A stretch of 28,488 nt of DNA, taken from an uncultured virus (IMG/VR IMGVR_UViG_3300026549_002462) (lineage: Duplodnaviria; Heunggongvirae; Uroviricota; Caudoviricetes). Every line of letters starts with the position of its first letter. Within the stretch, counting starts at the first letter, position 1. The notes below the pieces were generated by a model that saw only the letters and a program-made list of their open reading frames with translations, did not search any database and was not told the origin of the DNA. This document shows positions 7,462 to 28,276 of this stretch, piece by piece. The translations under genes and the position numbers were made by a program. Location of the stretch: the IMG/VR virus record IMGVR_UViG_3300026549_002462; one strand, given 5' to 3'.

Positions 7462-8577
7462 CTACTTCATGGTCTCCATGACCTTTCTTTTATCTTCTTC
7501 GTTGACCTTGATATAGCGCTTAGTTGTGGTAAGCGAGTCGTGATCGAGAAGGGAGGCGACTAGGCTGATGTCATTTCCGCGGTGTATCGCTGTGGTGGCT
7601 GTGGTCGCTCTAAGTTTGTGGGGCGAGTACCCGGCTCCGCCTATGACTACGGCTGTGTATTTGTGTACCAGAGCCTGAATCTGGCGTTCTGACAGTCTTT
7701 TTCTGCCTGCTGGGACAACGTTGCCTTCTGCATCTTTTTTCTCCGTAGAAAGGCAAAGAAACAGCGCGTCTTCGTGTCCGGGTGCAACATCTGTGCAGCG
7801 TTTGCGGTCCATCTCCATGTATTCGTTATAGATGTTTATGAGAGTGTTGTTGAGCGGCATGACCGACTCTTTTCCGCGCTTTCTGTACACTGTGAAGCTC
7901 TCTCTTTTGAGATTGAAAGAGGAGATGTTCAGCTGCTGCAGCTCAGCGAGTCGGAGGCCGGCAATAGTAAAGAGGGCGATTATCAGCTTGTCTCTGTACC
8001 TCGTCTGCTCCCAGTATGCCCGCTGGCGCTTCGTTAGGCCTTCTCCGGTCGATACAACGTCAAGAAGTTCGATTGCTTCATTCTCCTCGAGAGCCTTAAC
8101 GATGCGGGATGACGCCTTGACTTTTATAGACATTATCTTGCCCGTCACGTCATACTCTATCATGTCGTGCTTATACAGATACTTCAGGAGTCCGACGATG
8201 GAAGATCTCTTTCTTGCTCGTGCATCCGGGCCGTTCTCCACGGTGTCTCCGTCTGTTTCATACTTCTTGATATATGTCAGGTATTCGTCTATATCCTTTG
8301 CCTTGAGGTTTTCTATATCCTTTAAGGTGATATCTTTCGGATCCTTCGCCTCAGTAAGACCGGTGTCTGACACCATGTAAGTGAGAAAGTAGGCGATATC
8401 ATTCATATATGCCCATCTGGTCTTTACAGATCTTTCCTCGCCGTCAAGATATCTGTCATAGTCTGCAACGAAAGCGGGGAGAGCAGGCAGCAGCTCGTCT
8501 GTGATCTTGTGCCCAATGGTCTGCTCCTTCGCAAGAACGTTTTTTGGTTTTCTCTGATTTCTGACTCTGTTGGCCAT
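7462..8577 (-). CDS. Tyrosine recombinase (XerC/XerS-like)
   Basis: GLRLAEL, RKRGK, HKLRAT, LLDH, TKRY catalytic residues; SAM-like N-terminal domain. Confidence 0.92.
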   Translation of the reverse strand: MANRVRNQRKPKNVLAKEQTIGHKITDELLPALPAFVADYDRYLDGEERSVKTRWAYMNDIAYFLTYMVSDTGLTEAKDPKDITLKDIENLKAKDIDEYLTYIKKYETDGDTVENGPDARARKRSSIVGLLKYLYKHDMIEYDVTGKIMSIKVKASSRIVKALEENEAIELLDVVSTGEGLTKRQRAYWEQTRYRDKLIIALFTIAGLRLAELQQLNISSFNLKRESFTVYRKRGKESVMPLNNTLINIYNEYMEMDRKRCTDVAPGHEDALFLCLSTEKKDAEGNVVPAGRKRLSERQIQALVHKYTAVVIGGAGYSPHKLRATTATTAIHRGNDISLVASLLDHDSLTTTKRYIKVNEEDKRKVMETMK

Positions 8578-9994: not shown

Positions 9995-12900
9995 TTACTC
10001 CTTCCCGTCATACAGATCATTCAGCAGTTCATCCAGTTTACCTTCTTTCACATAAGGAACTGCATCAGCCTGTCTGAAGTTATGCCTTTCGATGTTAACG
10101 TCTTCATCAAAGCCCAGAATGTAATTCGTGGCTATCTTGTAAATAATCTCTGTAGGCGCAAGTCCGTAGACCTGGTTGGCGAAGATATGTTTAAGGCGCT
10201 CCTTCCCATCAGGGAAGAGACGTTTCATCTCATCGCTCTGGTACAGTCTTTTTACGATTTCTGTGATGTAGAGCCCGGATTTCATATAGAGATCTATGAA
10301 CGTCTTATCCGGTGCATCGAAGCAACCGGGGTTTTCCTCTTCGAGCATATCTACCATGCGCTTGACGACATCCTTAGGTGTGAAGATCTGGTTCGTCTTC
10401 TGTGGTGGGATATAGTCGAAGATGTCCTCGATGGCTTTTTCATCGAAGTAGTCAGCGAGCTTCTTCTTGAGTCTCAGGAACTCTTTGACTGAGTCATCGA
10501 ATACGACAGGATCGAACAGGTTGCCCGCGAAGTGCTTCTCTTCGCCAGTCTCTTCATCGGTGTAATTGCCGCCATCACGGAGGAACCTGAACTGATCGAG
10601 AGTGATGCTGGTAACCTCAACGAATACCTTGTTCGGAACCTTCTCGTCGAAGGTAGCAAGCGTGACCGTATCGTCGCCATATGCCATCAGGAAAGACGGG
10701 ATAGTGCGGGAAAAGCCTCTGAGGTGGTCTCTTACTGCATCTTCGATAGTTTCCTTCTCACGCTCTTTTTTCTTCGTCTCAACGTGTTTTACGACGTCTT
10801 TGGAAGCTTCTTCAGCAAACTCCGTAATAGAGGCAGAGAGGGTTTCTTTCAGCTTTTCTACGGCTTCCTTCTGCTTCTTATCGAATTCTTCATTAACGGC
10901 AGCGGATTCTTTTCCCCAATTTTCGAGGTTCTTGAGAGCATTCTGTCTTTCAGTTTCGATCTCCTGCTTTTCAAACTCATAATCGGTGGCGATCCTGTCG
11001 ACCATCCTGTCTGACTTGGCCTTCAGGCTGCGCTCAAGGAACTTCTTGTCCGAAGTGCGCATGTCGTCACCATAGTTATCCTTTGCCTTGCCGACAATCA
11101 CGTCAACAGCCTTTTCCTTGAAGGACTCCTTGAGCTTTTCAAGAAACTCATCTTCGTTCCCCGGCTGTTCCATAACCTGATCGATGACATGCTCAATCTC
11201 CTCAGTGTCATATATCTTGTCACCGAAGACATCATCAGCAACGCCGATCACATAGTCGTCAGTAAGTTCTACTTCGCCTTCATTATTGATTGAAAGGCCA
11301 TCTTTTGTTCCTTCATCCATTGGAATCGTTGACTTCGGCTCCTTAAGCGGCTGGAAGTTTTCGATGATCTCGATGACTTCCTTCGGCGCACTAAAGATGT
11401 TCGAAATGTTCTGAAAGAGGAAGTTCGACATAAAGCCGCGTCTTACAACTTCAACAGACTTGATCTTTCTTGGTATCGAAAGGACCTTTGCTGCATCGAG
11501 CTCGATCATCTCGCCTTCATCGTCTTCTGCTAATACAGGGAAGAAATTAAGAAGACGCTTGATATTCTTTTCTCTCTGTTCGATGTCGCCTCTGCCGGCA
11601 GCCGTATCTGAGCACAGGTCGTTTGCAAACTCTTCGTAAACAGTCAGGGTTCTGGCCGGATCGAAATCGAATACGTAGGCGCGCTCTTTTCTGTAGTGCT
11701 TGCCGTTCTCGTGGAAGAGGCAAGGGTTCTGAGCTCTGAAGGCTGCCTGCATGTAAAGTGCAGGGCTCTTCATATTCGAGAGCATCAGTACTGCTGTCCA
11801 TTCAGGGATAGTAACGCCTGTCGTGAGCTGTCCGACAGAAAGTGTTATGGTCTTGTCGTTATGTGCGATAGCATCTCTAACAGCGTCGAACGATTTCTGG
11901 TTTTCTGCTTCATCGTCGAGTTTGCCGTCTCCGGCTGCAAGGACGACTTTATATTCTGAGAATACAGGGTGTGTTTCAAGCTTCCTGGCAAGAGCCTTTG
12001 CACTGTCTACTCTGTTCAGCAGCCAGAAGGAGTGCTTGATCTCGGATCTGAGCTCAGGCGTCGAGAACGGGAATTTTGTCTGCGAGGCAAGTGCATCGAG
12101 GAACCTGTTCACGGCACTGTCATATTTGAATGCGCCCGTTCCTGTAGTAATGAAGAATTCGTTGAGGTCGAAGGCATACTCTTCGGTCTCTCCGTTTATT
12201 TCTACGCCTCTGTCAAGCTCTTCTCTGATGATCTCGGACATCTGGTAGGTGAGCATAGACAGCTGCGGAAGGGTACCGTATGGGTTTTCTCCTTCGCCAT
12301 CCCACTGTTCTTTCTTAGCCTGCTCGTCTGCGTATGTCCAGTTGAATATAGCATCTGAATTGAACTTGTCGTTAGCAAGAGCCTTGAACGGTGTGCCTGA
12401 CAAGTGCAGCGTGAATTTTCTGCTGATCCTGTTGAACGCTACATCCGTCTTATAGGTATCAACGCCTTCGTGGGCTTCATCGATAACGAGGATGTCCCAG
12501 GTGATATTCTTGACTTCCTCGAGTTTGTCCACTAGGCTATGAGGATTGAAATACTTTGAACCTTTCAGATCCTGCAGGCTTACGAATTCTATGCAGCCAT
12601 AGCCTTCCAGCAGTGGACCGTCGACATATTCTTTTCGGGATAAGCAGTATGGTTTGCCTTTAAGAGCGTCAACACGGCTGACGAACTTAAGGCCGGACTC
12701 GTCACCCACGAACCTTACATAGTCATCGTACCATGAGTTGGCTATAGCAGGCCTGTTGGTGACTATGAGAATCGTCTGTGCTCCGAGCCTCTTGCAGAGA
12801 TCATAAACGGATAAGGTCTTGCCGAAACGAGGTTTACAGTTAAACAGGTATTCAGCGTTTTTATGTGTATTCGCGTAATCAAGTGCGCTACTGACAGCCT

Positions 12901-13303
12901 GTTCCTGCTCGTCTCTCAGCTTATATGGGATCACAGTGTCTATGGCGCTGAGTATTCCGCGGTTCTGTCTGAAATCGTAGAAATGATTCCTTCCGGTCGG
13001 ACCATCCACATGGAACCACTCATTCTCTTTGCCGTCCATCTCTTCGATGTTGTTCTTGCGAAGGTAGGCGTGGAAGTCTTTATCGCTGAAGGTATCGTTT
13101 GAGCCCTCGAAAACCGCATTTCCGGACCATTCAAGCTTGTATTCGACATCTGCGGTGTGTGTCTGCTGTCCGAGCCTTGCGCCGACATCCTGTTCCGTGT
13201 ATCCAATCTTGGTCCAGCCATCATGTCTTGCGATCTCAGGAGTAGAATAGCTGTAGATGGTTGGGACGGTCTCTTTAGTTGTCTTGATGTCTATCTTTGC
13301 CAT
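9995..13303 (-). CDS. Restriction endonuclease/SF2 helicase (GIY-YIG-like N-terminus, ResIII-type helicase, C-terminal MTase-like fragment)
   Basis: IYSY..KIGYT..R..EWF; KPRFGKT; IDEAH; SGTP; QAAFRAQ; C-terminal QIFTP..FIDLYMKSG. Confidence 0.88.
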   Translation of the reverse strand: MAKIDIKTTKETVPTIYSYSTPEIARHDGWTKIGYTEQDVGARLGQQTHTADVEYKLEWSGNAVFEGSNDTFSDKDFHAYLRKNNIEEMDGKENEWFHVDGPTGRNHFYDFRQNRGILSAIDTVIPYKLRDEQEQAVSSALDYANTHKNAEYLFNCKPRFGKTLSVYDLCKRLGAQTILIVTNRPAIANSWYDDYVRFVGDESGLKFVSRVDALKGKPYCLSRKEYVDGPLLEGYGCIEFVSLQDLKGSKYFNPHSLVDKLEEVKNITWDILVIDEAHEGVDTYKTDVAFNRISRKFTLHLSGTPFKALANDKFNSDAIFNWTYADEQAKKEQWDGEGENPYGTLPQLSMLTYQMSEIIREELDRGVEINGETEEYAFDLNEFFITTGTGAFKYDSAVNRFLDALASQTKFPFSTPELRSEIKHSFWLLNRVDSAKALARKLETHPVFSEYKVVLAAGDGKLDDEAENQKSFDAVRDAIAHNDKTITLSVGQLTTGVTIPEWTAVLMLSNMKSPALYMQAAFRAQNPCLFHENGKHYRKERAYVFDFDPARTLTVYEEFANDLCSDTAAGRGDIEQREKNIKRLLNFFPVLAEDDEGEMIELDAAKVLSIPRKIKSVEVVRRGFMSNFLFQNISNIFSAPKEVIEIIENFQPLKEPKSTIPMDEGTKDGLSINNEGEVELTDDYVIGVADDVFGDKIYDTEEIEHVIDQVMEQPGNEDEFLEKLKESFKEKAVDVIVGKAKDNYGDDMRTSDKKFLERSLKAKSDRMVDRIATDYEFEKQEIETERQNALKNLENWGKESAAVNEEFDKKQKEAVEKLKETLSASITEFAEEASKDVVKHVETKKKEREKETIEDAVRDHLRGFSRTIPSFLMAYGDDTVTLATFDEKVPNKVFVEVTSITLDQFRFLRDGGNYTDEETGEEKHFAGNLFDPVVFDDSVKEFLRLKKKLADYFDEKAIEDIFDYIPPQKTNQIFTPKDVVKRMVDMLEEENPGCFDAPDKTFIDLYMKSGLYITEIVKRLYQSDEMKRLFPDGKERLKHIFANQVYGLAPTEIIYKIATNYILGFDEDVNIERHNFRQADAVPYVKEGKLDELLNDLYDGKE

Positions 13304-14353
13304 TACTCCATCTCCTTGACGTGAGTCTCAATGAATTCAATTTCTTCGTCTGCGAGGTTGTATTTCTTGTAAAGCTGTCTGTCTATGTTCTGGACGGAGG
13401 TGTTCCAGTTGATGTCTGAGCTGCTAGTAAAGTCTTGTTTAGGAACGTGCTGCCATTTATTTGGGGTGATATGCTGGGTTACTTTGAGAATGCTCAGAAG
13501 GGTTCTTGCAAATTTACTCTTAAGGTATTTTTGACAGTTGATCGCTTCCTCTGCTGTTTCAAAATTCCCTATGCTTATGAATGTTATAGTCGCGCCATCT
13601 CCTTTTTCTGCTATAATCGGCGCGCCCATTATGCGGGCAGGGACAGGGTTGCCTATAGTTCCAGCTGCTCCATCTGACATTGATATGAAAACCTTATGTT
13701 TATCAAGGTTGGTGACATCATTTAAGTATTTTCTTTTTATGAACCTCCAGCAGCGTTTCGCCCCAATTCTACCAAGTATTCGAATATAGTCATCATCTTC
13801 GGGTTTTGTTTCGAAGAACACTTCAGGGTATGTTTCGAAGGCGTTGGACTGCAGATCGTATTCGTGCCCTTTGCTCGCTCTTCCCACAAACATAGGATTT
13901 TCCTGATAGAAATTGTCTGTATAGTGATATGCGAAGCTTGTCACGACAATGTCGATAATGCTTTCAAATCCAGCGCTGCTCGTCACTTTCTTAAAAATAT
14001 TATTGAGCGACGGAAAGCTCGTAAATGTACCTATCGCGCCAAAGACCGAGTCTGCATCGTGGTAGGTTATAGCTACGCCGCCGGTTATATCCACTCCGTT
14101 GAAGATGTTGGCTGAATTTGCTTCATAAGACAGTACCTTTAAATGCTCGTCATTAAGCATTTTTTTATTCCAGTCTTTTGGTGTATAGCCTGCATTGAAG
14201 AGAAATCTTGCAGGTGTAATGAGCATCGTTTTATCCGAGACATCGTATGCTGCATCCATAAAGGTATGGTAAACCGGCACCGCTGTATTACTGTCTCCTT
14301 GCCGTTCTTCTTGATATGGGGGGATTGCCGACGCAGAAATCAAACTTCTTCAT
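13303..14353 (-). pseudogene. Eco57I-like adenine MTase catalytic/TRD subunit with +1 frameshift in a C6 tract (phase-variable, pseudogene or sequencing error)
   Basis: ATG 14353 reads MKKFDFCVGNPP then leaves frame; removing one C from 14318-14323 restores NPPYQEE and joins the 346-aa ORF. Confidence 0.8.
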
Positions 14354-21981: not shown

Positions 21982-22068
21982 GGTGTTTTATTGCTCCTTT
22001 TGTTCTTTTAAAGTAGTTTACATGTGGCCCTGGGATATGAAGCCTCTCGGGTGGGCTAGGGGAGATGC

Positions 22069-22494
22069 TTAGTCGTTAGGCTCTGTAAGTGAGAAGCCGT
22101 GCTGCTTGGCATGTTCTACGGCAGCTTTGCTCATGTCGGCTTCAAGCTGTGCCTCCCAGTCATCCGCTGTGAAGTCCACTTCGCAGTCTTTGTCTGCGTG
22201 CTCGTCAGAGTACCAGGTGCCATCGCTTGCCTTTAAACAGACGAAGTAGGCGAGACTTACGTCGCAGTCATCCTCGGTAGCATCGAGGACATCTCCGCCG
22301 GATGCTGTCCACATCTCAAGTTCGATGTCGATAGACGGATACTCGAGGACTGCGAGTACACGCTCAGCGTTGCAGGTCTCTTCAAGAAATTGGTCCCATG
22401 CCTGCGGATCAGAAACCGGATACTTGCCGGATCTGAGCGCAGCCAGAACAGAAGGTGTTAGATTGGCTATTTCGAAGCTGTAATCTTTACTCAT
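22069..22494 (-). CDS. Acidic hypothetical protein
   Basis: AGAAAGGA RBS before ATG 22494; first gene after a strong promoter. Confidence 0.75.
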   Translation of the reverse strand: MSKDYSFEIANLTPSVLAALRSGKYPVSDPQAWDQFLEETCNAERVLAVLEYPSIDIELEMWTASGGDVLDATEDDCDVSLAYFVCLKASDGTWYSDEHADKDCEVDFTADDWEAQLEADMSKAAVEHAKQHGFSLTEPND

Positions 22495-22689
22495 GGCGTG
22501 TTGTATTCCTTTCTGTCTCATGAGTCGGTCCTGTCACCATAGAACCGGGCCCAGGCGTTGATTGAATTATGTATGTATGAGTTCCGGCGAAAGTGGCGTA
22601 AATCGCCACTTAGCGCCGAGAGAGGAGGGTAATTATGTAGTTTTTTGACTGGACAAGGGTCAAACGGTCATTTCGGTTACCCTGTGGAT

Positions 22690-22733
22690 AGTATACCAAA
22701 CTATGCAGTAAATGTCAATTTAACGCATAGTTT
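22690..22733 (-). promoter_or_regulatory. Near-consensus sigma-A promoter with flanking inverted repeat
   Basis: TTGACA (22718-22713)-17-TATACT (22695-22690) with TG extension; AAACTATGC/GCATAGTTT at 22698-22706 and 22725-22733. Confidence 0.8.
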
Positions 22734-22797
22734 AGCCGCTTTTAAATAGGCGCCCGCATCCGTGGCAAAACCGTTACAAATGCGTAACACCCGACTG

Positions 22798-23124
22798 TTA
22801 TGACGCTCTTCCTGAGCGCTTTCTTCTATTTTTATTTACTGTTCGGAATATTTCTGCCGGAAGCTGCAGCACTGTCACTAGGACCAGATCATCGAGGTCT
22901 TCTGTATAGATAAATGCTTTGTCTCCGTACAAATATATTACTCTATTTTCATCGTAGTACTGTTGATCAAGCCAGCGTCTTACGGTTCCTTTGGTTTCTT
23001 CTGCGTTTGTTCCTCTTTCAATTGCAAGGCTGCAGATCCTTTCTGCTGTTGCTTTCTTTCCTGTGCCGCAGCGATCTTTGATTCGCTGTCTTGCGTGATT
23101 GCTGATGTAGATATTGCCGTTCAT
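22798..23124 (-). CDS. Small basic protein, RelE/BECR-like fold suspected
   Basis: ISNHARQRIKDR ... LVTVL pattern; AGAAAGGAG RBS. Confidence 0.6.
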   Translation of the reverse strand: MNGNIYISNHARQRIKDRCGTGKKATAERICSLAIERGTNAEETKGTVRRWLDQQYYDENRVIYLYGDKAFIYTEDLDDLVLVTVLQLPAEIFRTVNKNRRKRSGRAS

Positions 23125-23279
23125 GATGTTCTCCTTTCTTTAGGTACTCTGATACCTTTTAATGTGTTTTCTCGCCTTAGAGGGCGAATTTTGGTCTTGG
23201 CTTCTGAGAGATTTGCGGTCACCATTCACATATCTCTCAGATGTGTCCTGTTTTGCGCTATTTCTGCTTAACTGAACTG

Positions 23280-23915
23280 TCATTCATCTAACAGAAAATA
23301 CTCGTTATAGCCTAAGCGTGATATTGTGATGCCGTCTGGGGTATTAAGGGCTACGTAATCGTTGATATAATCCTTGATGTAGGCTTCGATATCACCATCG
23401 TATCCATCCTGAACCATCTCCCACGCATCCTGACCTTTTTCAACCTCCTGTTTGAGGAATCTTTCGACAGCCAGCCTGCATTCTTCCGTCGATAGCGATT
23501 TTGGCCATACTGGTGTGTATTCGCTCAGGGATGGAACGAATTTTTCTTCAATCGAGTCCCACTCTACATCCATCTCAGCAACGCAGTATTCACCTGCGGG
23601 ATCGTTTAGGTAGCTTTTCTGGTCATATTCCGTCATGCTGTCCCAGAGGTCTTTTGCGTAAGCTATCGCTGCGTCTTTATCAGTAAAAAGCTCATATGAG
23701 CCGAAACCGCTGCGGTCCCTGTATTCGTAGAACACCCACGCCTTATGGTTTACGTTCTCACTGGCCACGATATAGGTCAGCATGTCGAGCACGTAATCCG
23801 GCGGAGTTCTCTTCTCTGTCTCCCAGTCTTCGATCGTGCGCTTTGGGATGCTGTATTTTTCTGAAAAATTAGCCTGGGAAAGCCCGGTGCGGGTTCTGAT
23901 TTCCTTGATTTGCAT
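23280..23915 (-). CDS. XRE-family HTH regulator with acidic C-terminal domain
   Basis: IKEIRTRTGLSQANFSEKYSIPKRTIEDWE..R.PPDY. Confidence 0.85.
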   Translation of the reverse strand: MQIKEIRTRTGLSQANFSEKYSIPKRTIEDWETEKRTPPDYVLDMLTYIVASENVNHKAWVFYEYRDRSGFGSYELFTDKDAAIAYAKDLWDSMTEYDQKSYLNDPAGEYCVAEMDVEWDSIEEKFVPSLSEYTPVWPKSLSTEECRLAVERFLKQEVEKGQDAWEMVQDGYDGDIEAYIKDYINDYVALNTPDGITISRLGYNEYFLLDE

Positions 23916-23930
23916 TTTCAGCCCCCCTTT

Positions 23931-24179
23931 CTACTGATCCAGGAACCAATCGGCGTAGTACCCAAATTTTCCAAAGTCGATCGGAGCCTCTTCCGGAATC
24001 TCGGGGTCGTATGCGACACCATACCAGCGCCGGATAGCGACTTGTGTGCCGTTGTCGTCCTCAACGGTTATATCCTGCTGTGTATATGCAGCTGCTTCAT
24101 CTGCGCGTGTCATAGCTTCCTCCAGCGTATCTGCTGTGAAATTGCCTGCTCCGGTGTGAAAATTAACTAAATAGCTCAT
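23931..24179 (-). CDS. Small acidic hypothetical protein
   Basis: 82 aa; its AGGAG RBS is the IS110 insertion site. Confidence 0.75.
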   Translation of the reverse strand: MSYLVNFHTGAGNFTADTLEEAMTRADEAAAYTQQDITVEDDNGTQVAIRRWYGVAYDPEIPEEAPIDFGKFGYYADWFLDQ

Positions 24180-24202
24180 TTAATCTCCTTGTATTATTAT
24201 CT

Positions 24203-24376
24203 TCGAGCATTAACGTATTAGTTTGCGCTTAATGCTACACTGTTAGGGACACTGTGGATTGGTGCGAATCTCCTACCACTTGATGGTTCAAGAAAGGCTC
24301 CAACCACAGCTCTCTGTATAGTTGTTGATCAGTTAGATACCGCATGACGGTTTATGTAGAACAAGGTTACGCTATC
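24203..24376 (+). ncRNA. IS110 bridge RNA (5' hairpin, target-binding loop, donor-binding loop); ends approximate
   Basis: Hairpin AGCATTAA/TTAATGCT; loop 1 guides GAATCTCCT (24266-24274) and AGAAAG (24291-24296); loop 2 guides AGTTAG (24331-24336) and ACAAG (24361-24365). Confidence 0.8.
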
Positions 24377-24429
24377 AGTGAGTACGTGGTCCTAAACAGT
24401 GTTAAATACATAATGCAAGGAGATTTTTT

Positions 24430-25605
24430 ATGATCTATGTTGGTATCGATGTCGCCAAAGACAAGCATGACTGCTATGTCAGCGACTCTGATGGTGTAGA
24501 GCTTTATGCCCCATTCATCATCCAGAACACCAGAGAGGGATTTGAGGATCTTTTCGAGAAAGTACGAGCTGTGGCTCCAGATTTGTCCAAAGTAAAAATA
24601 GGGCTGGAAGCCACCGGACATTACGGCTACAACATACTTGGTTACTTGCTCGAAAAGGAATTCCGCATATTCCTCATCAATCCGCTTCACACGAATCTGT
24701 TCCGAAAAAGTCTAAGCCTTAGACAGACCAAAACGGACAAGGTCGATGCTCGTACCATTTGTATGATGCTTCATTCCGGTATGGCTCTTACGCCCTACTC
24801 GAAAACATCATACCATATGGAGGAGCTCAAATCATTAACCAGATACCGTTTTGACAAGGTCCATGAAAGGGGTAAGTTGAAACAGTCGGTTTCCCGTCTT
24901 GTTACTATCTTGTTCCCTGAGTTGGAAAAGCTCGTCCCGAGCCTTCATATGAAGTCTGTATACGCTCTCCTGTATGAGTTTCCTGGAGCTGAGCAGGTTG
25001 CAGCCTGTCATATGACCCATCTTAAGAAGCTGCTTTATGATGCCTCCGGCGGTCGTTATGGCAAGGATGTTGCTGAAACGATCCGTAACGCTGCTCGCAG
25101 TTCTATCGGTTCTCATATACCTGCAAAGTCGCTTGAGCTCAAACATACTATTGACCTTATCCGAAAGATTGATGATGAGATCAACGAAACTGAGAGCGCC
25201 ATCAAAGTCATCATGGATGACATTGGTTCTCCAATACTCACTATCCCAGGCATAAGCTACCGAATGGGTGCGATGATCATTGCTGAGCTTGGCGACATAA
25301 GCAGATTCAACTCACCTGACAAGATACTAGCCTATGCCGGTATGTCACCATCGACATACCAATCGGGGCAGCTTACCTCGTCATACGCGCATATGGAGAA
25401 GCGAGGATCCCGCTACTTGCGTTATGCATTATTCAATGCAACGAAGTTTGTCTGCATATGGGATGAGTCATTTGCGAAATACCTCGCAAAAAAGCAATCC
25501 GAAGGCAAGCATTACAACGTCGCAGTTTCACATGCTGCGAAGAAGCTCGTCAGACTCATGTTTCACCTAATAAATACAGGCGAAGCATACATTCCAGCCG
25601 CTTAG
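24430..25605 (+). CDS. IS110-family recombinase/transposase
   Basis: DEDD RuvC-like motifs GIDVAK, LEATG, KTDKVDA; IPGI; AYAGMSP..QSG; KRGSRYLR. Confidence 0.96.
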   Translation: MIYVGIDVAKDKHDCYVSDSDGVELYAPFIIQNTREGFEDLFEKVRAVAPDLSKVKIGLEATGHYGYNILGYLLEKEFRIFLINPLHTNLFRKSLSLRQTKTDKVDARTICMMLHSGMALTPYSKTSYHMEELKSLTRYRFDKVHERGKLKQSVSRLVTILFPELEKLVPSLHMKSVYALLYEFPGAEQVAACHMTHLKKLLYDASGGRYGKDVAETIRNAARSSIGSHIPAKSLELKHTIDLIRKIDDEINETESAIKVIMDDIGSPILTIPGISYRMGAMIIAELGDISRFNSPDKILAYAGMSPSTYQSGQLTSSYAHMEKRGSRYLRYALFNATKFVCIWDESFAKYLAKKQSEGKHYNVAVSHAAKKLVRLMFHLINTGEAYIPAA

Positions 25606-25625
25606 CTTTTTCTAATATCTCCTGC

Positions 25626-25648
25626 AGCATCCATATGGATGCTCTTTT
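25626..25648 (+). terminator. Hairpin terminator in IS110 right end
   Basis: Perfect palindrome AGCATCCATATGGATGCT followed by CTTTT. Confidence 0.55.
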
Positions 25649-25785
25649 GTCATGCAGTTTTCAAAGTGCTGATCTGATCTTTTCCGCTTATTCGACTAAC
25701 CTTACAGCAGCGGCGGGTGCCAGCGCATTTACCCTTGACTTTTAATAGTTAGTCTTTCTGATACGCAGTGTTATTCTATGGTGTT

Positions 25786-25814
25786 AGTATACCACGCTTT
25801 GCGTGGTGCGTCAA
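25786..25814 (-). promoter_or_regulatory. Sigma-A promoter with palindromic operator in the spacer
   Basis: TTGACG-17-TATACT with TG extension; ACCACGC-TTT-GCGTGGT at 25791-25807. Confidence 0.78.
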
Positions 25815-25881
25815 TATAAAGGCTGCATAAAACATTCAATATATGCCGTAAAAACCATAAGATATGAAAAGAAACTGCAAT

Positions 25882-25911
25882 ATAAAACGCCCCGGACAAA
25901 AGTCCGAGGCG
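25882..25911 (-). terminator. Intrinsic terminator after the PcfJ gene
   Basis: GC-rich stem (CGCC..CGGAC / GTCCG..GGCG) followed by TTTTAT on the - strand. Confidence 0.7.
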
Positions 25912-25940
25912 CTCTTCGTTAAAGCGGTGTTTGTTGTGTC

Positions 25941-27656
25941 CTAAAACGGGATCGCGTCGAAAGCGAAGCGAAAACCACCGAAATCATCAAAGGCCGGAAC
26001 AACATTCTCGAAGTGATTTGCTCTCGGGTATTGTTGTCCGTCAAATTTGATGTTGTGCTTCTTTGTCCACGCATTGAACGAATCTGAAGCAACTCCTTCC
26101 AGAGGCTTGTTGCACGCAGCAAAGGCCTGTCTGCAGCTGCTGCCTGATGGATCAAGCTCAATGCACCCAGCAGGCTTGTTGCCAATCGTCATTTCGACGA
26201 TCACCGATTGCTTACGCTTGACGTCTTCCATGTATGAGCCAACGCAGTTGTGGAATCTGCGGCCAAGAGCGCGAAGCTCAAGAGGCTGCTTGATAACGGT
26301 GAACTCAGCACCGCCATACTCCCCTTCAAGTGCATAGATCGTCTCATCATACGAAACTTCTGTACCGTACTGTTTGTAGATTAGTTTGTCTTTATTCAGC
26401 AGCTCGATTTCAACTAAGACATTATGCAGCTCAGTCATAGTTCTGCATGCTTTCAGTTCTTCGGCTGTGATTGGGCATAAATCATACATTCTGGCAGTAT
26501 CACGAAGTATGTAAAATGAGACTTCCCTGCTGATGAAGAGCTCAGCGATCTTCCTGTCACTCATACCGGCATTTCTGCAGGCAGTCGCCAGGTTTGCGAC
26601 CATGTGCTCCCTGTCTGCAAACTGCTGCCATTCATATATAAGGTTATCAATGTAATCTGTTTCATCCGTCAAATACTCTCTGATGATATCCACATTGCTG
26701 ATTCCCAGTGTTTTATGAAGAAAACGCAGCCTCCATTTGAGGACAGGGCGCGCATAAAGGATTTTTCTGATCGACTTGGTCGCTACCTTTCCACATCCGT
26801 AGTAAAGATACTTCGGGAAGGTATATGGATCCTTTCTGTATCTTGCCCTGAGTTTCTTGTAGGAGTCACTGTAAATGTAGCCTACAGGAGGCTCACCGTA
26901 AAACCTGTCGTGATCCTCTTTAGGGCGCAGATCATACAGTTCTTTCAGAAAATTGGCATATGCTACTTCCATGAGGGACCCGAGTTCTGATTTTACGGCA
27001 GGAGTAAGACGTTTGAAAGCCTTCTCCAGTGCGTTCATAGCCTCCGGGTCAGCTTCAAGGAATGTCTTGCTAATGCGCATAATAATCGGGTTGTATGAAA
27101 AAGATGCCCTCCTTATGGCCTGTATATCGGCGAAAACCTTCTTCCCTCTGTTCTGTGCCGGCATGATATATGTCTGGCCGGAAGATACATTGATTACCAC
27201 GGTTATCTGAAATACCGTGCTGTAAGGCTTCATTGCCTTAGGGTTAAGGTAATAGTTTCTTCCAACTACAGAAAGGTGGATGCTGTCGCCGTGCTCGGTA
27301 ATTTCGAGCTTTACAGGGAACGCGTCATGGATCCGAGCACTTGTCCTGCGTGTTAGAGCAGAGCAGTTTACATTGAAACAGTTGCGTTCAGAAAACGGAT
27401 CACCGCAACCACAAGTAAGGACGCTGCGATTTTCTCTTTCTGCTTTAACGAGAACATCTTCAGAGTATTCGTGGAATTCCCCGCACTTCGTGCAGAAAAC
27501 GCCTGTCATCATCTCTGTTTCTGCCTCTTCGGGACGCCTATATGCTTCCGCTACATAGAGCGGTGTCCGTTCGTCCGTATCCTTGCGCATCAGATAACGC
27601 ATCGAAAGTCGGACGTCCGGATAGCCATATTCTTTTTTATATAGCAGTTTTCCCAT
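25941..27656 (-). CDS. PcfJ-like domain protein with N-terminal Cys cluster
   Basis: ELHN.L, and C-terminal LGRRFHNCVGSY..IEL..QAF..CN; CTKC..CGC; AAGGAGG RBS. Confidence 0.8.
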   Translation of the reverse strand: MGKLLYKKEYGYPDVRLSMRYLMRKDTDERTPLYVAEAYRRPEEAETEMMTGVFCTKCGEFHEYSEDVLVKAERENRSVLTCGCGDPFSERNCFNVNCSALTRRTSARIHDAFPVKLEITEHGDSIHLSVVGRNYYLNPKAMKPYSTVFQITVVINVSSGQTYIMPAQNRGKKVFADIQAIRRASFSYNPIIMRISKTFLEADPEAMNALEKAFKRLTPAVKSELGSLMEVAYANFLKELYDLRPKEDHDRFYGEPPVGYIYSDSYKKLRARYRKDPYTFPKYLYYGCGKVATKSIRKILYARPVLKWRLRFLHKTLGISNVDIIREYLTDETDYIDNLIYEWQQFADREHMVANLATACRNAGMSDRKIAELFISREVSFYILRDTARMYDLCPITAEELKACRTMTELHNVLVEIELLNKDKLIYKQYGTEVSYDETIYALEGEYGGAEFTVIKQPLELRALGRRFHNCVGSYMEDVKRKQSVIVEMTIGNKPAGCIELDPSGSSCRQAFAACNKPLEGVASDSFNAWTKKHNIKFDGQQYPRANHFENVVPAFDDFGGFRFAFDAIPF

Positions 27657-27691
27657 TGTGTTCCTCCTTTAATTTATTATCTGAAGAGTTT

Positions 27692-28276
27692 TTAGAGAGG
27701 CATCTCAATGTATGAGATGTTGTATCTCTCGTAAATATCATCGTCTGTCTCCCATACCTTCATAAGCGCTGCCGGAGTGCCGAACGGAGAGCCCTTTGGA
27801 TCATATGTGATGCCAAACAGCTCGTATTCATCTGCTTCTTCCGGCGGATACGTATAGCTGCCCGTGCTTTCAAGCCATGCCAGGATGACTTTGGTCGGGG
27901 CTGCATTTCCAGGTCGATGTTCTTCGATGTCCGCAGCGAGGCTGTCCATCAGATCCTGATTATAAAGCTTGGCCGCAGAGGTGTTGTTTTCGGTAGACGC
28001 TACAGTGATCAGTGTACGATAACCTCCGTCACGTTCTCTGTGCGCTATCCATACATTCGGAAGCTCATTGTCATCGATGTGGATCGATGTGACTTCTTCT
28101 ACACCTATAGCAGCAGCAAGCTTTTCATGCAGGTCTTCTACCGGGATGTCTTCTTCTCCCAGTCCAACGTAAAGGCCATCGGCTGAGAAGTCCGCGTAGA
28201 TATCTGCTCCGTATATGGAACAGAGAAGCTGCCTGAATTCGACAGCGGTGTATACTTTGCATTTCGTATCGCTCAT
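27692..28276 (-). CDS. Acidic hypothetical protein
   Basis: 194 aa; AAGGAGG RBS. Confidence 0.75.
   Translation of the reverse strand: MSDTKCKVYTAVEFRQLLCSIYGADIYADFSADGLYVGLGEEDIPVEDLHEKLAAAIGVEEVTSIHIDDNELPNVWIAHRERDGGYRTLITVASTENNTSAAKLYNQDLMDSLAADIEEHRPGNAAPTKVILAWLESTGSYTYPPEEADEYELFGITYDPKGSPFGTPAALMKVWETDDDIYERYNISYIEMPL

What the first reader, a model, noticed from the sequence alone, without database searches (positions are those of the whole stretch)
24181..25760. IS110 bridge RNA programmed to target Shine-Dalgarno sequences
Seen: the empty target reconstructs as TAATCTC-CT-TTCTG, which on the - strand reads CAGAAAGGAGATTAaATG, the RBS of gene 23931-24179. In the left end, an internal loop within the CTGTGG/CCACAG stem carries GAATCTCCT (8/9 match to the left target) and AGAAAG (reverse complement of CTTTCT, 6/6). 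A second loop carries AGTTAG (left donor AGTTAGTCT, first 6 nt only) and ACAAG (reverse complement of CTTGT). The circle junction gives TTGACT-17-TATTAT. Known: this is the IS621-type bridge RNA architecture with a CT core. Inference: the guide specifies the Bacillota AGAAAGGAG RBS, an abundant intergenic target that avoids breaking ORFs; this is a ready recombinase/RNA pair for reprogramming.
Basis: partly seen in the sequence, partly recalled or inferred. Interest (0 to 1): 0.75.

Follow-up and report, generated by a model that had tools for sequence, protein, structure and literature searches.

The report
RNA-guided jumping gene targeting ribosome-binding sites
This is an intact IS110-type insertion sequence whose own guide ("bridge") RNA spells out a ribosome-binding site, so it and its many gut-bacterial relatives land just upstream of gene start codons; the machinery is a known kind, and the target choice has an older precedent in IS900.

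Summary
The element proper is window 24190-25755 (1566 bp). A 97%-identical metagenome contig (L086) carries the uninterrupted site CATTGAATCTCCTTTCTGATACG. This fixes the ends and the single CT core. Its left half, GAATCTCCT, matches the guide at 24266-24274 in 9 of 9 positions. CTTTCT matches the guide at 24291-24296 in 6 of 6.

The protein is an IS110-family DEDD recombinase (Pfam, NCBIfam, IS621 structure match). The left end encodes a two-loop RNA. Its stems show compensatory changes in 61 relatives.

Across about 80 independent insertions of the family, from genomes and viral contigs, both guides covary with their flanks (0 of 2000 permutations reach the observed match). In 59 of 80 sites, GAAAGGAG lies 7-18 nt before an ATG-initiated ORF on the opposite strand, against 6% at random positions. 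Shine-Dalgarno targeting is therefore a family trait written in the guide.

It is a new member of a known kind. The architecture is IS621-like. IS900 has the published target motif CATGNNNNNNTCTCCTT. ORFs are spared, but genes are cut off from their promoters. RNA expression, circle formation and reprogrammability were not tested.

The parts
23931..24179 (-). Target gene (82 aa, no Pfam family) whose ribosome-binding site received the insertion
   Evidence: ORF list; Pfam none; ATG 10 nt after core on minus strand
24181..24189 (.). Left target half-site TAATCTC + core CT (24188-24189); minus strand AGGAGATTA = SD retained next to the gene
   Evidence: empty allele L086 reads GAATCTCCT here
24190..25755 (+). 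IS110-family insertion sequence, 1566 bp (includes the right-hand CT core 25754-25755)
   Evidence: Precisely absent from L086; homology with independent copies L001/L002 ends at these points
24192..24197 (+). TATTAT, -10 half of the promoter formed only at the RE-LE circle junction
   Evidence: [CT]GTATTAT starts the LE in family members
24206..24236 (+). 5' stem-loop (AGCATTAA ... TTAATGCT)
   Evidence: the family has a different hairpin (AGTCC...GGACT) at the same place
24252..24309 (+). Target-binding stem-loop of the bridge RNA: outer stem 24252-24262/24300-24309, inner stem-loop 24275-24287
   Evidence: Helix 2: 10 pairs, 3 with compensatory changes (7, 6 and 14 sequences)
24266..24274 (+). 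Left target guide GAATCTCCT (same sense as target top strand, includes core CT)
   Evidence: 9/9 to empty allele L086, 8/9 to window flank; family covariation
24291..24296 (+). Right target guide AGAAAG (reverse complement of core + TTCT)
   Evidence: 6/6; family covariation
24312..24380 (+). Donor-binding stem-loop: outer helix 24312-24317/24375-24380, inner stem-loop 24339-24351, AGTTAG 24331-24336, ACAAG 24361-24365
   Evidence: helices 4-6; ACAAG vs ACGAG tracks LE first base T vs C
24417..24423 (+). AAGGAGA, ribosome-binding site of the recombinase gene
24430..25605 (+). Recombinase gene, 391 aa, DEDD_Tnp_IS110 + Transposase_20
25626..25643 (+). Terminator-like palindrome after the recombinase gene
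   Evidence: I8
25735..25755 (+). Conserved right-end 21-mer TTGACTTTTAATAGTTAGTCT: -35 TTGACT (25735-25740), left donor AGTTAGT and core CT
   Evidence: Found with at most 2 mismatches in 78 of 80 family loci; exact in 112+ viral contig stretches
25756..25760 (.). Right target half-site TTCTG
25786..25814 (-). Promoter-like site TTGACG-17-TATACT (TG-extended) that would have driven the target gene before insertion
   Evidence: consensus match only

Best explanation
Window 24190-25755 is an intact, recently mobile IS110-family (IS110-group, IS621-type) insertion sequence.

**How it works.**
- Its 240-nt left end encodes a bridge RNA with a 5' hairpin, a variable target-binding loop and a conserved donor-binding loop.
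- The target loop carries GAAUCUCCU and AGAAAG. Together they specify the DNA site GAATCTC-CT-TTCT. Read on the other strand, this is AGAAAGGAGATTC, a Shine-Dalgarno sequence plus the first bases of the spacer before a start codon.
- The recombinase, guided by this RNA, joins the CT core of the circularised element to the CT inside the ribosome-binding site. The junction RE...AGTTAGT-CT-TGTATT...LE also rebuilds a TTGACT-17-TATTAT promoter.
- The element therefore always lands antisense to the target gene, between the gene's promoter and its AGGAG.
- AGGAG and the ATG stay intact beside the left end, and the ORF is not broken.

**The family.** The same logic holds for a large family in gut Clostridia and their phage and mobile-element contigs. 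The core-proximal guide bases (CUCCU / GAAAG) are near-constant and amount to an anti-SD mimic. The distal guide bases change quickly and track the gene-specific spacer.

**Shown and inferred.**
- Shown: ends, empty site, protein family, RNA stem covariation, guide-target and guide-donor covariation, enrichment at start codons.
- Inferred from IS621 biochemistry: RNA expression from the junction promoter, circle formation, and RNA-dependence of the specificity.
For: **Empty allele.**
- L086 reads ...CTCATTGAATCTCCTTTCTGATACG...
- Both flanks align at 96-97% identity, overlapping by CTT.

**Protein.**
- PF01548, E 2.2e-39, and PF02371, E 1.2e-20.
- NF033542 'IS110 family RNA-guided transposase', 213 bits against a cutoff of 140.
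- IS621 transposase 8wt6, E 5.4e-18, aligning over the GID..., EATG, KTD.VDAR and Y.SG motifs.

**RNA structure** (61 sequences).
- 99.4% of 1891 cells are paired.
- 6 pairs and 44 cells have changes on both sides.
- 0 of 500 shuffles reach the covariation score.
- Slid controls pair at most 52%.

**Guide-flank match.**

| Set | Guide | n | Observed | Permuted | Source |
|---|---|---|---|---|---|
| Genome | LTG | 57 | 5.74 of 8 | 3.81, sd 0.16 | |
| Genome | RTG | 58 | 4.12 of 6 | 2.83, sd 0.105 | |
| Viral (replicate) | LTG | 27 | 4.89 | 3.30 | |
| Viral (replicate) | RTG | 23 | 4.52 | 2.65 | |

In every set, 0 of 2000 permutations reach the observed value.

**Donor guide.**
- The guide reads ACAAG where the LE starts with T (WIN, L001, L002, L030, L037, L041, L066).
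- It reads ACGAG where the LE starts with C.

**SD enrichment**.
- 59 of 80 sites have ATG plus an ORF of at least 50 aa at 7-18 nt, mostly at 10-15.
- The split is 40 of 55 genome sites and 19 of 25 viral sites.
- The control gives 680 of 11120 (6.1%).

**Independent insertions of near-identical copies.**
- G001, G002 and G003 all sit at xCTCCT|TTCx just 3' of CAT.
- Contigs of other runs diverge from the window at the left junction (2) and at the right junction (5: 4 after TT, TTC or TTCT; 1 directly at the RE end, 25755).

**Agreement with the IS621 description** (PMC11208160, passages seen).
- The first loop is variable and the second conserved.
- The core is included in each guide.
- A promoter is rebuilt across RE-LE.
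Against: - The single-sequence fold of the window RNA is no more stable than shuffles (-48.4 kcal/mol, z -1.04). The structure rests on covariation, not energy.
- The left donor guide matches only 6 nt (AGTTAG) and does not visibly cover the core. One variant in that loop (L041, G for T) has no matching change in its RE.
- In three of the four close copies, the distal guide bases fit their own flanks poorly. LTG against LT is 7/9 (L001), 6/9 (L002) and 7/9 (G003), and only CTCCT is always matched. Either several mismatches are tolerated or the guides changed after insertion.
- 21 of 80 sites have no ATG-ORF by my criteria.
- The constant CUCCU/GAAAG bases cannot covary, so RNA-fold or protein constraints on them are not excluded.
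- Rfam 15 has no matching family.
- There is no direct evidence here for the RNA, the circle or activity.
Confidence: 0.87

Rival explanations
1. The element is a normal bridge-RNA IS, but the Shine-Dalgarno likeness is incidental. The guides simply drift among A/T- and purine-rich intergenic words, and insertions next to start codons survive because they are least harmful. On this view selection after insertion, not programming, explains the pattern.
For: Distal guide bases are poorly matched to the flank in three of the four close copies. 21 of 80 sites lack an ATG-ORF. Only surviving insertions can be seen in genomes.
Against: The SD word is in the guides themselves, not only in the flanks. 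LTGs end in CTCCT, CACCT or TTCCT, and RTGs are mostly GAAAG, in nearly all of 83 members. A second subfamily with different guides still encodes an SD in another register (xxAC-CT-CC = GGAGGTGA). Orientation relative to the gene is fixed.
Confidence: 0.07
2. The protein, not the RNA, reads the constant CTCCT-TTC part of the site. The RNA loops add only minor discrimination, or serve another role such as masking the recombinase's own ribosome-binding site.
For: The constant bases cannot covary. In the window clade, the left junction 24182-24197 is 15/16 complementary to the recombinase RBS 24410-24425, with a predicted duplex of -20.5 kcal/mol. Anti-SD-like sequence could therefore have a regulatory use.
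Against: Variable guide positions covary with the flanks on both sides of the core. In IS621 every position including the core is RNA-read and reprogrammable (PMC11208160, passages seen). The RBS-masking complementarity is absent from the wider family: mean -7.9 against a permuted mean of -7.7 kcal/mol.
Confidence: 0.04
3. The copy in the window is a dead relic that no longer moves.
For: No circle-junction contig was seen. No expression data could be interpreted.
Against: The 391-aa ORF is intact, and both ends and both loops are present. A copy with an identical protein (99.7% DNA identity) sits at a different site in G001. Empty and filled alleles coexist at 97% flank identity. The IS is present in 20 runs of 12 studies, with several different junctions.
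Confidence: 0.02

Closest known systems
IS621 / IS622 (ISCro4) bridge-RNA recombinases of E. coli and Citrobacter (IS110 family, IS110 group)
   Same: Two-domain DEDD + Tnp recombinase (PDB 8wt6 and 9t56 matched at E 5e-18 and 2e-17). ncRNA in the left end, with a 5' hairpin, a variable target loop and a conserved donor loop. CT core present in donor and target and included in the guides. 9-nt left target guide. Promoter rebuilt across the RE-LE junction. Scarless empty site.
   Different: Only distant protein similarity: two aligned stretches, and a 391-aa protein against a 328-aa chain. The right target guide reads core + 4-5 nt, against a four-base RTG in IS621. Per-position match is above permuted through position 5. 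The natural target is a ribosome-binding site in Bacillota rather than REP elements. The left donor guide visibly matches only 6 nt.
IS900 of Mycobacterium avium subsp. paratuberculosis (IS110 family) and, from memory, IS901/IS902/IS116
   Same: Orientation-specific insertion at CATGNNNNNNTCTCCTT (PMC8141618, passage seen). That is the complement of AAGGAGA-N6-CATG, an SD plus start codon. The word TCTCCTT is nearly the one used here (TCTCC-T|TTC).
   Different: Actinobacterial host. Relatedness of the proteins and the RNA was not tested here. No paper in the searched library holds both 'IS900' and 'bridge RNA', so the guide explanation has not been written down for it there. That IS900 sits 'between RBS and start codon' is my recollection of older papers that I did not see.
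IS1111-group elements with seekRNA (ISEc11, IS4321/IS5075, IS1111-attC)
   Same: Same recombinase superfamily and RNA-guided site choice (PMC11187229, abstract and one passage seen).
   Different: As I recall it from the seekRNA paper, the guide RNA of that group lies downstream of the recombinase gene, and the elements have subterminal inverted repeats. One search's abstract states the inverted repeats; the RNA position was not read here. In this element the RNA is upstream, in the LE. The repeat scan shows no terminal or subterminal inverted repeat pairing the two ends.

Membership tests
IS110 family, IS110 group (IS621-type bridge-RNA insertion sequence) | Recombinase with N-terminal DEDD RuvC-like domain and C-terminal Tnp domain | tested here: met
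   PF01548 (res. 4-163) and PF02371 (res. 269-351); NF033542 213 bits vs cutoff 140; IS621 transposase 8wt6 E 5.4e-18. Catalytic residue identities are inferred from the alignment; the residue numbers are recalled, not tested.
IS110 family, IS110 group (IS621-type bridge-RNA insertion sequence) | No target duplication; the same core dinucleotide at both junctions and once in the empty site | tested here: met
   CT at 24188-24189 and 25754-25755; single CT in L086 TGAATCTC-CT-TTCTGAT
IS110 family, IS110 group (IS621-type bridge-RNA insertion sequence) | Long non-coding left end encoding an RNA with a 5' stem-loop and two stem-loops with internal loops, the first variable and the second conserved | tested here: met
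   240-nt LE. Structure count on 61 sequences: 31 pairs, 99.4% paired, 6 compensatory pairs, 0/500 shuffles. Loop 1 columns are variable and loop 2 columns nearly invariant. Expression of the RNA was not tested.
IS110 family, IS110 group (IS621-type bridge-RNA insertion sequence) | Target-binding loop: left guide equals the target top strand incl. core; right guide is complementary to core + right target | tested here: met
   9/9 and 6/6 against the empty allele; family covariation with 0/2000 permutations in two independent sets
IS110 family, IS110 group (IS621-type bridge-RNA insertion sequence) | Donor-binding loop guides matching the element's own ends | tested here: inconclusive
   Right donor guide: ACAAG/ACGAG tracks the LE first base T/C. 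Left donor guide: only AGTTAG (6 nt) matches AGTTAGTCT. The donor is almost invariant, so covariation is nearly untestable.
IS110 family, IS110 group (IS621-type bridge-RNA insertion sequence) | Sigma-70-type promoter reconstituted across the RE-LE junction of the circle | tested here: met
   TTGACT (25735-25740)-17 nt-TATTAT (24192-24197) by sequence. Both halves are conserved in the family. Function is not testable with these tools.
IS110 family, IS110 group (IS621-type bridge-RNA insertion sequence) | RNA-dependent recombination activity | not testable with these tools
   Only indirect evidence: filled and empty alleles and near-identical copies at different sites
RBS-targeting IS110 elements (IS900-like behaviour) | Orientation-specific insertion beside an SD a few nt from a start codon | tested here: met
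   59 of 80 sites vs 6.1% control; logo GAAAGGAG; IS900 motif from PMC8141618
RBS-targeting IS110 elements (IS900-like behaviour) | Close sequence relationship to IS900 itself | not tested
   No IS900 sequence was fetched or compared
IS1111 group (seekRNA) | Guide RNA downstream of the recombinase gene and subterminal inverted repeats | tested here: not met
   The guide loops lie upstream, at 24252-24380. No inverted repeat pairs the two ends.

The most novel reading that the evidence does not exclude
A large clade of gut-Clostridia IS110 elements uses its bridge RNA as an anti-Shine-Dalgarno mimic. A constant CUCCU/GAAAG part recognises the ribosome-binding site shared by thousands of genes. 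A fast-evolving distal part (7 of 13 positions changed between 95%-identical copies, against 72 of 1553 elsewhere) retargets the element to the spacer of particular genes. Insertion is orientation-fixed and leaves AGGAG, the ATG and the ORF intact, and the empty allele shows no scar. The elements could therefore act as reversible, gene-specific off-switches for genes of bacteria, phages and conjugative elements. In the window clade, the captured anti-SD at the left junction could also silence the recombinase in read-through transcripts by pairing with its RBS.
Probability: 0.2. Interest if true: 0.65.

Novelty: new member of a known kind. Interest (0 to 1): 0.48.

Why it matters
- It gives a clean natural example, with filled and empty alleles and about 80 related insertions, of what a bridge RNA is programmed for in the wild. 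Here that is the translation-initiation signal itself.
- It offers an RNA-level explanation for the long-known preference of IS900 for SD-plus-ATG sites.
- These elements are common in ruminant and human gut Clostridia and on their phage-like and conjugative contigs. For annotation, they mark ribosome-binding sites and silence or uncouple the gene behind them without breaking it.
- For tool builders, the family offers a second, Gram-positive set of recombinase/RNA pairs. It has a longer right target guide and many natural guide variants.

Tried and rejected
- **Own genome:** none is held for the window, so copy number in the host could not be counted.
- **Plasmid collection:** no match.
- **Phage collection:** one 75%-identical partial hit, not followed.
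- **Rfam 15:** only a sub-threshold PrrB/RsmZ match inside the recombinase gene on the opposite strand (20 bits against 44). Rejected as chance. There is no bridge-RNA family to match.
- **Promoter scan:** no internal promoter in the LE and no outward-facing promoter at the left end. A TG-extended TACACT at 24233-24241 was seen by eye only.
- **Viral contigs:** the scan for the window's right flank found nothing.
- **Sequencing runs:** all 24 listed runs are kept as contigs. No contig joins 25755 back to 24190 and none skips the element. The RNA-library contigs that hold the IS cannot show transcription, starts or ends. X1 carries the window's own junctions without a difference and may be its source, so it is not independent.
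- **First ORF control:** the control was too lenient (19.6%) because internal GTG/TTG codons counted. It was replaced by the ATG-only test.
- **RBS masking across the family:** I tested whether the left-junction/recombinase-RBS complementarity is a family trait. It is not: -7.89 against a permuted -7.71, sd 0.16.
- **hed-like ORF:** I looked for an ORF on the opposite strand entering from the right end. The ORF list shows none starting there.
- **Earlier scan notes:** nothing bears on this finding.
- **Literature:** searches and preprints 58 and 60 found no statement linking bridge RNAs to ribosome-binding sites. bioRxiv supplements are closed, and three supplementary files of PMC11208160 could not be read.
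Full report
**1. What is in the sequence**

Window 24430-25605 (+) encodes a 391-aa protein.
- Pfam: DEDD_Tnp_IS110 (E 2.2e-39) and Transposase_20 (E 1.2e-20).
- NCBIfam: NF033542 'IS110 family RNA-guided transposase', 213 bits against a cutoff of 140.
- PDB: it aligns in two stretches to the IS621 transposase 8wt6 (E 5.4e-18) and to the ISCro4 transposase 9t56 (E 1.9e-17).

- The left junction reads TTAATCTC-CT|TGTATTATT, with the LE starting at 24190.
- The right junction reads AATAGTTAGT-CT|TTCTGATAC, with the RE ending at 25755.

**2. Ends and empty site**

- An exact-word scan of metagenome contigs with 31 bases of the right flank returned one contig, L086.
- L086 aligns to window 22025-24190 (97.0%) and to 25754-27673 (96.4%). 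The two alignments overlap by three bases.
- Across the site it reads ...AAAAAGCTCATTGAATCTCCTTTCTGATACGCAG....
- The element is thus precisely absent, with a single CT.
With it, the guide GAATCTCCT (24266-24274) matches 9 of 9 and AGAAAG (24291-24296) matches CTTTCT 6 of 6.
- On the minus strand the site is CAGAAAGGAGATTCAATG, the ribosome-binding site and start of the 82-aa ORF 23931-24179.
- A promoter-like TTGACG-17-TATACT with an upstream TG lies at 25814-25786 on the minus strand. It is now separated from that gene by the element.

**3. Relatives**

- A protein-guided scan of one genome per species found 285 relatives, of which the best 80 were kept.
  - Three are the same IS: L001 with 100%, L002 with 98% and L003 with 96% amino-acid identity, in Mogibacterium/Anaerovoracaceae MAGs.
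  - The rest are 66-74% identical, mostly in Lachnospiraceae.
- DNA homology with L001 and L002 stops at window 24181-24183 and 25757-25758. That is inside the target half-sites, because the targets resemble each other.
- The right-end 21-mer TTGACTTTTAATAGTTAGTCT occurs with at most 2 mismatches in 78 of 80 loci.
- The left end starts [CT]GTATTAT.
- The same 21-mer occurs exactly in at least 112 stretches of viral contigs.

**4. The RNA**

- I aligned 61 distinct left-end regions. L055 was left out because its donor loop is deleted, and identical rows were collapsed.
- RNAalifold predicted 34 pairs.
- I then counted a named structure of 31 pairs: a long-range closing helix, the target stem-loop and the donor stem-loop.
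  - 99.4% of 1891 cells are paired.
  - 6 pairs and 44 cells change on both sides.
  - 0 of 500 shuffles reach the covariation score.
  - Partners slid by 1-3 columns pair at 29-52%.
- The target stem has compensatory changes at three pairs, in 7, 6 and 14 sequences.
- The viral set adds ACCA/TGGT against ACCG/CGGT in the inner stem.
- The columns of the first internal loop vary. Those of the second are nearly invariant.
- All this matches the description of IS110 ncRNAs in Durrant et al. (PMC11208160, passages seen):
  - the first loop poorly conserved;
  - guides that include the core;
  - a promoter rebuilt across RE-LE.
- Against: the window RNA alone folds no better than shuffles (z -1.04).

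**5. Guides against flanks**

For every locus where my patterns found the loop and a flank, I compared the 8 guide bases 5' of the core with the left flank. I also compared the reverse complement of the 6 bases next to the core in the 3' loop with the right flank.

| Set | Guide | n | Observed mean matches | Permuted mean (sd) | Permutations reaching observed |
|---|---|---|---|---|---|
| Genome | Left | 57 | 5.74 | 3.81 (0.16; highest 4.39) | 0 of 2000 |
| Genome | Right | 58 | 4.12 | 2.83 (0.105; highest 3.19) | 0 of 2000 |
| Viral | Left | 27 | 4.89 | 3.30 | 0 of 2000 |
| Viral | Right | 23 | 4.52 | 2.65 | 0 of 2000 |

- Per-position match stays above permuted out to about 10 nt on the left and 5 nt on the right. 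The right guide is therefore longer than the four-base RTG of IS621.
- Loci where the regular expressions failed are not in these counts. These are truncated contigs, L004, L048, and some viral loci without enough upstream sequence.
- Relatedness among elements can inflate such statistics. The two sets come from different collections but are not guaranteed to be disjoint.
- For the donor, the 3' loop reads ACAAG in the seven aligned elements whose LE starts with T. It reads ACGAG where the LE starts with C.
- The 5' loop shares only AGTTAG with the right end.

**6. Shine-Dalgarno targeting**

I rebuilt the empty site from the flanks of 80 non-redundant insertions with at least 200 nt of left flank (55 genome, 25 viral).

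- The minus-strand logo is G(47) A(54) A(61) A(80) G(80) G(70) A(60) G(48) of 80.
- 77 of 80 contain an SD core word.
- 59 of 80 have an ATG opening an ORF of at least 50 codons 7-18 nt after the core A, mostly at 10-15. The split is 40/55 genome and 19/25 viral.
- With GTG and TTG allowed, the count is 62 of 80.
- The same test at random positions and strands of the same flanks gives 680 of 11120 (6.1%) for ATG and 13.1% for any start.
- All insertions have the recombinase gene antisense to the target gene.
- A separate subfamily (1655 bp; loops GAGGCGTTACT / TTTGGGAG) has five sites of the form xxxAC-CT-CC(C/T). That is GG-AG-GTGA, an SD in another register.

**7. Close copies**

| Copy | Left flank | Left guide match | Right flank |
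|---|---|---|---|
| G001 | ...GTTTCATAAGTATCTCCT | 7/9 | TTCTCTTATT, from a contig end that may be the other side |
| G002 | ...TTCATATAACCTATTCTCCT | 6/9 | TTCATTTTGG |
| G003 | ...CATATTGCATTCTCCT | 7/9 | TTCTATAT, on another contig |

- Each lies just 3' of CAT.
- Only CTCCT and TTC are always matched.
- Substitutions between these copies pile up in the distal loop positions:
  - 7 of 13 against 72 of 1553 for L002 (Fisher p 8.6e-7);
  - 4 of 13 against 21 of 464 for G003;
  - 1 of 13 against 4 of 1553 for L001.
- Contigs from other runs also vary at 24265-24269.
- These contigs diverge from the window at the junctions. On the left, two further flanks precede CTCCT or TCCT; one of them has CAT 8 nt upstream. 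Of five further right flanks, four follow TT, TTC or TTCT and one diverges directly at the RE end (25755).

**8. Consequences of the insertion**

- AGGAG, the ATG and the ORF stay intact beside the left end (ACA-AG-GAGATTAAATG).
- The gene is nevertheless cut from its upstream transcription unit.
- In 46 of 77 sites a co-directional frame, open for at least 50 codons, ends within 150 nt upstream. In 22 of these it ends within 33 nt (a crude measure). Many insertions therefore sit inside operons.
- No outward promoter was detected at the left end.

**9. Comparison with the literature**

- The machinery is that of IS621.
- SD-plus-start-codon targeting is documented for IS900 as the motif CATGNNNNNNTCTCCTT (PMC8141618, passage seen). 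Its older description as 'between RBS and start codon' is my recollection.
- In the searched library:
  - no paper holds both 'IS900' and 'bridge RNA';
  - the Durrant paper contains no 'ribosome binding site' and was not among the papers holding 'Shine-Dalgarno';
  - two recent IS110 preprints contain none of the RBS terms.
- The Durrant supplementary target list does contain a few SD-like targets, such as sequences with CAT...CCTCCTTTCC. Such elements were in that dataset but were not discussed.
- Three of its supplementary files, and all bioRxiv supplements, could not be read.

**10. Verdict**

- The element is a new member of a known kind: a canonical bridge-RNA IS whose natural program is the ribosome-binding site.
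- Not shown here: the RNA, the circle, and the RNA-dependence of the specificity.
- Context: the window looks like an integrative or conjugative mobile region, with topoisomerase, tyrosine integrase, PcfJ-like, helicase and methylase genes.

Noticed in passing
window 24182-24197 and 24410-24425: The left junction (target AATCTCCT + first 8 nt of the element) is 15/16 complementary to the recombinase's own ribosome-binding region (ATAATGCAAGGAGATT), with a predicted duplex of -20.5 kcal/mol. Transcripts reading in from the left flank could mask the recombinase RBS, whereas transcripts from the circle-junction promoter would lack the 5' arm. The pairing is present in WIN, L001 and L002 but not in the wider family (mean -7.9 against a permuted -7.7 kcal/mol).
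   Followed up: partly
L087, L132, L152, L162, L164 (viral contigs; 1655-bp elements): A sister subfamily with the same right end but loops GAGGCGTTACT / TTTGGGAG sits at five different sites of the form xxxAC-CT-CC(C/T), an SD in another register (GGAGGTGA). The best-matching site (L164, GGCGTTAC-CT) fits the guide only if one base is bulged.
   Followed up: partly
window 24263-24270 and 24288-24292 vs L002, L001, L084: Differences between 90-99.7%-identical copies concentrate in the distal guide positions (7 of 13 against 72 of 1553 for L002). Guides turn over much faster than the rest of the element.
   Followed up: yes
window 24237-24255 and 24389-24403: ACACTGT occurs twice just before the target stem. 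It can pair either locally (CTGTGG/CCACAG) or with ACAGTGT about 150 nt downstream. The long-range helix has compensatory changes at two pairs (11 and 3 sequences), so the 5' and 3' ends of the RNA may close on each other.
   Followed up: partly
window 256-23915 and 25941-28276: The surroundings look like an integrative/conjugative or phage-like mobile region. Genes include a topoisomerase (256-2523), a tyrosine integrase (7462-8577, -), a ResIII helicase-like 1102-aa protein (9995-13303, -), an Eco57I-type methylase fragment (13303-14343, -), an HTH protein (23280-23915, -) and a PcfJ-like 571-aa protein (25941-27656, -).
   Followed up: partly
L055 (genome contig locus): A family member of only 1443 bp keeps the target loop directly in front of the recombinase start and lacks the donor loop. 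It is a natural deletion variant.
   Followed up: no
L051, L058, L060, L068, L038, L026 (whole contigs of 1572-1640 bp): Several assemblies hold the element as a stand-alone contig of element length, ending in a few bases of target (CCT ... TT/TTC). This is typical of a collapsed multi-copy repeat and hints at several copies per genome.
   Followed up: no
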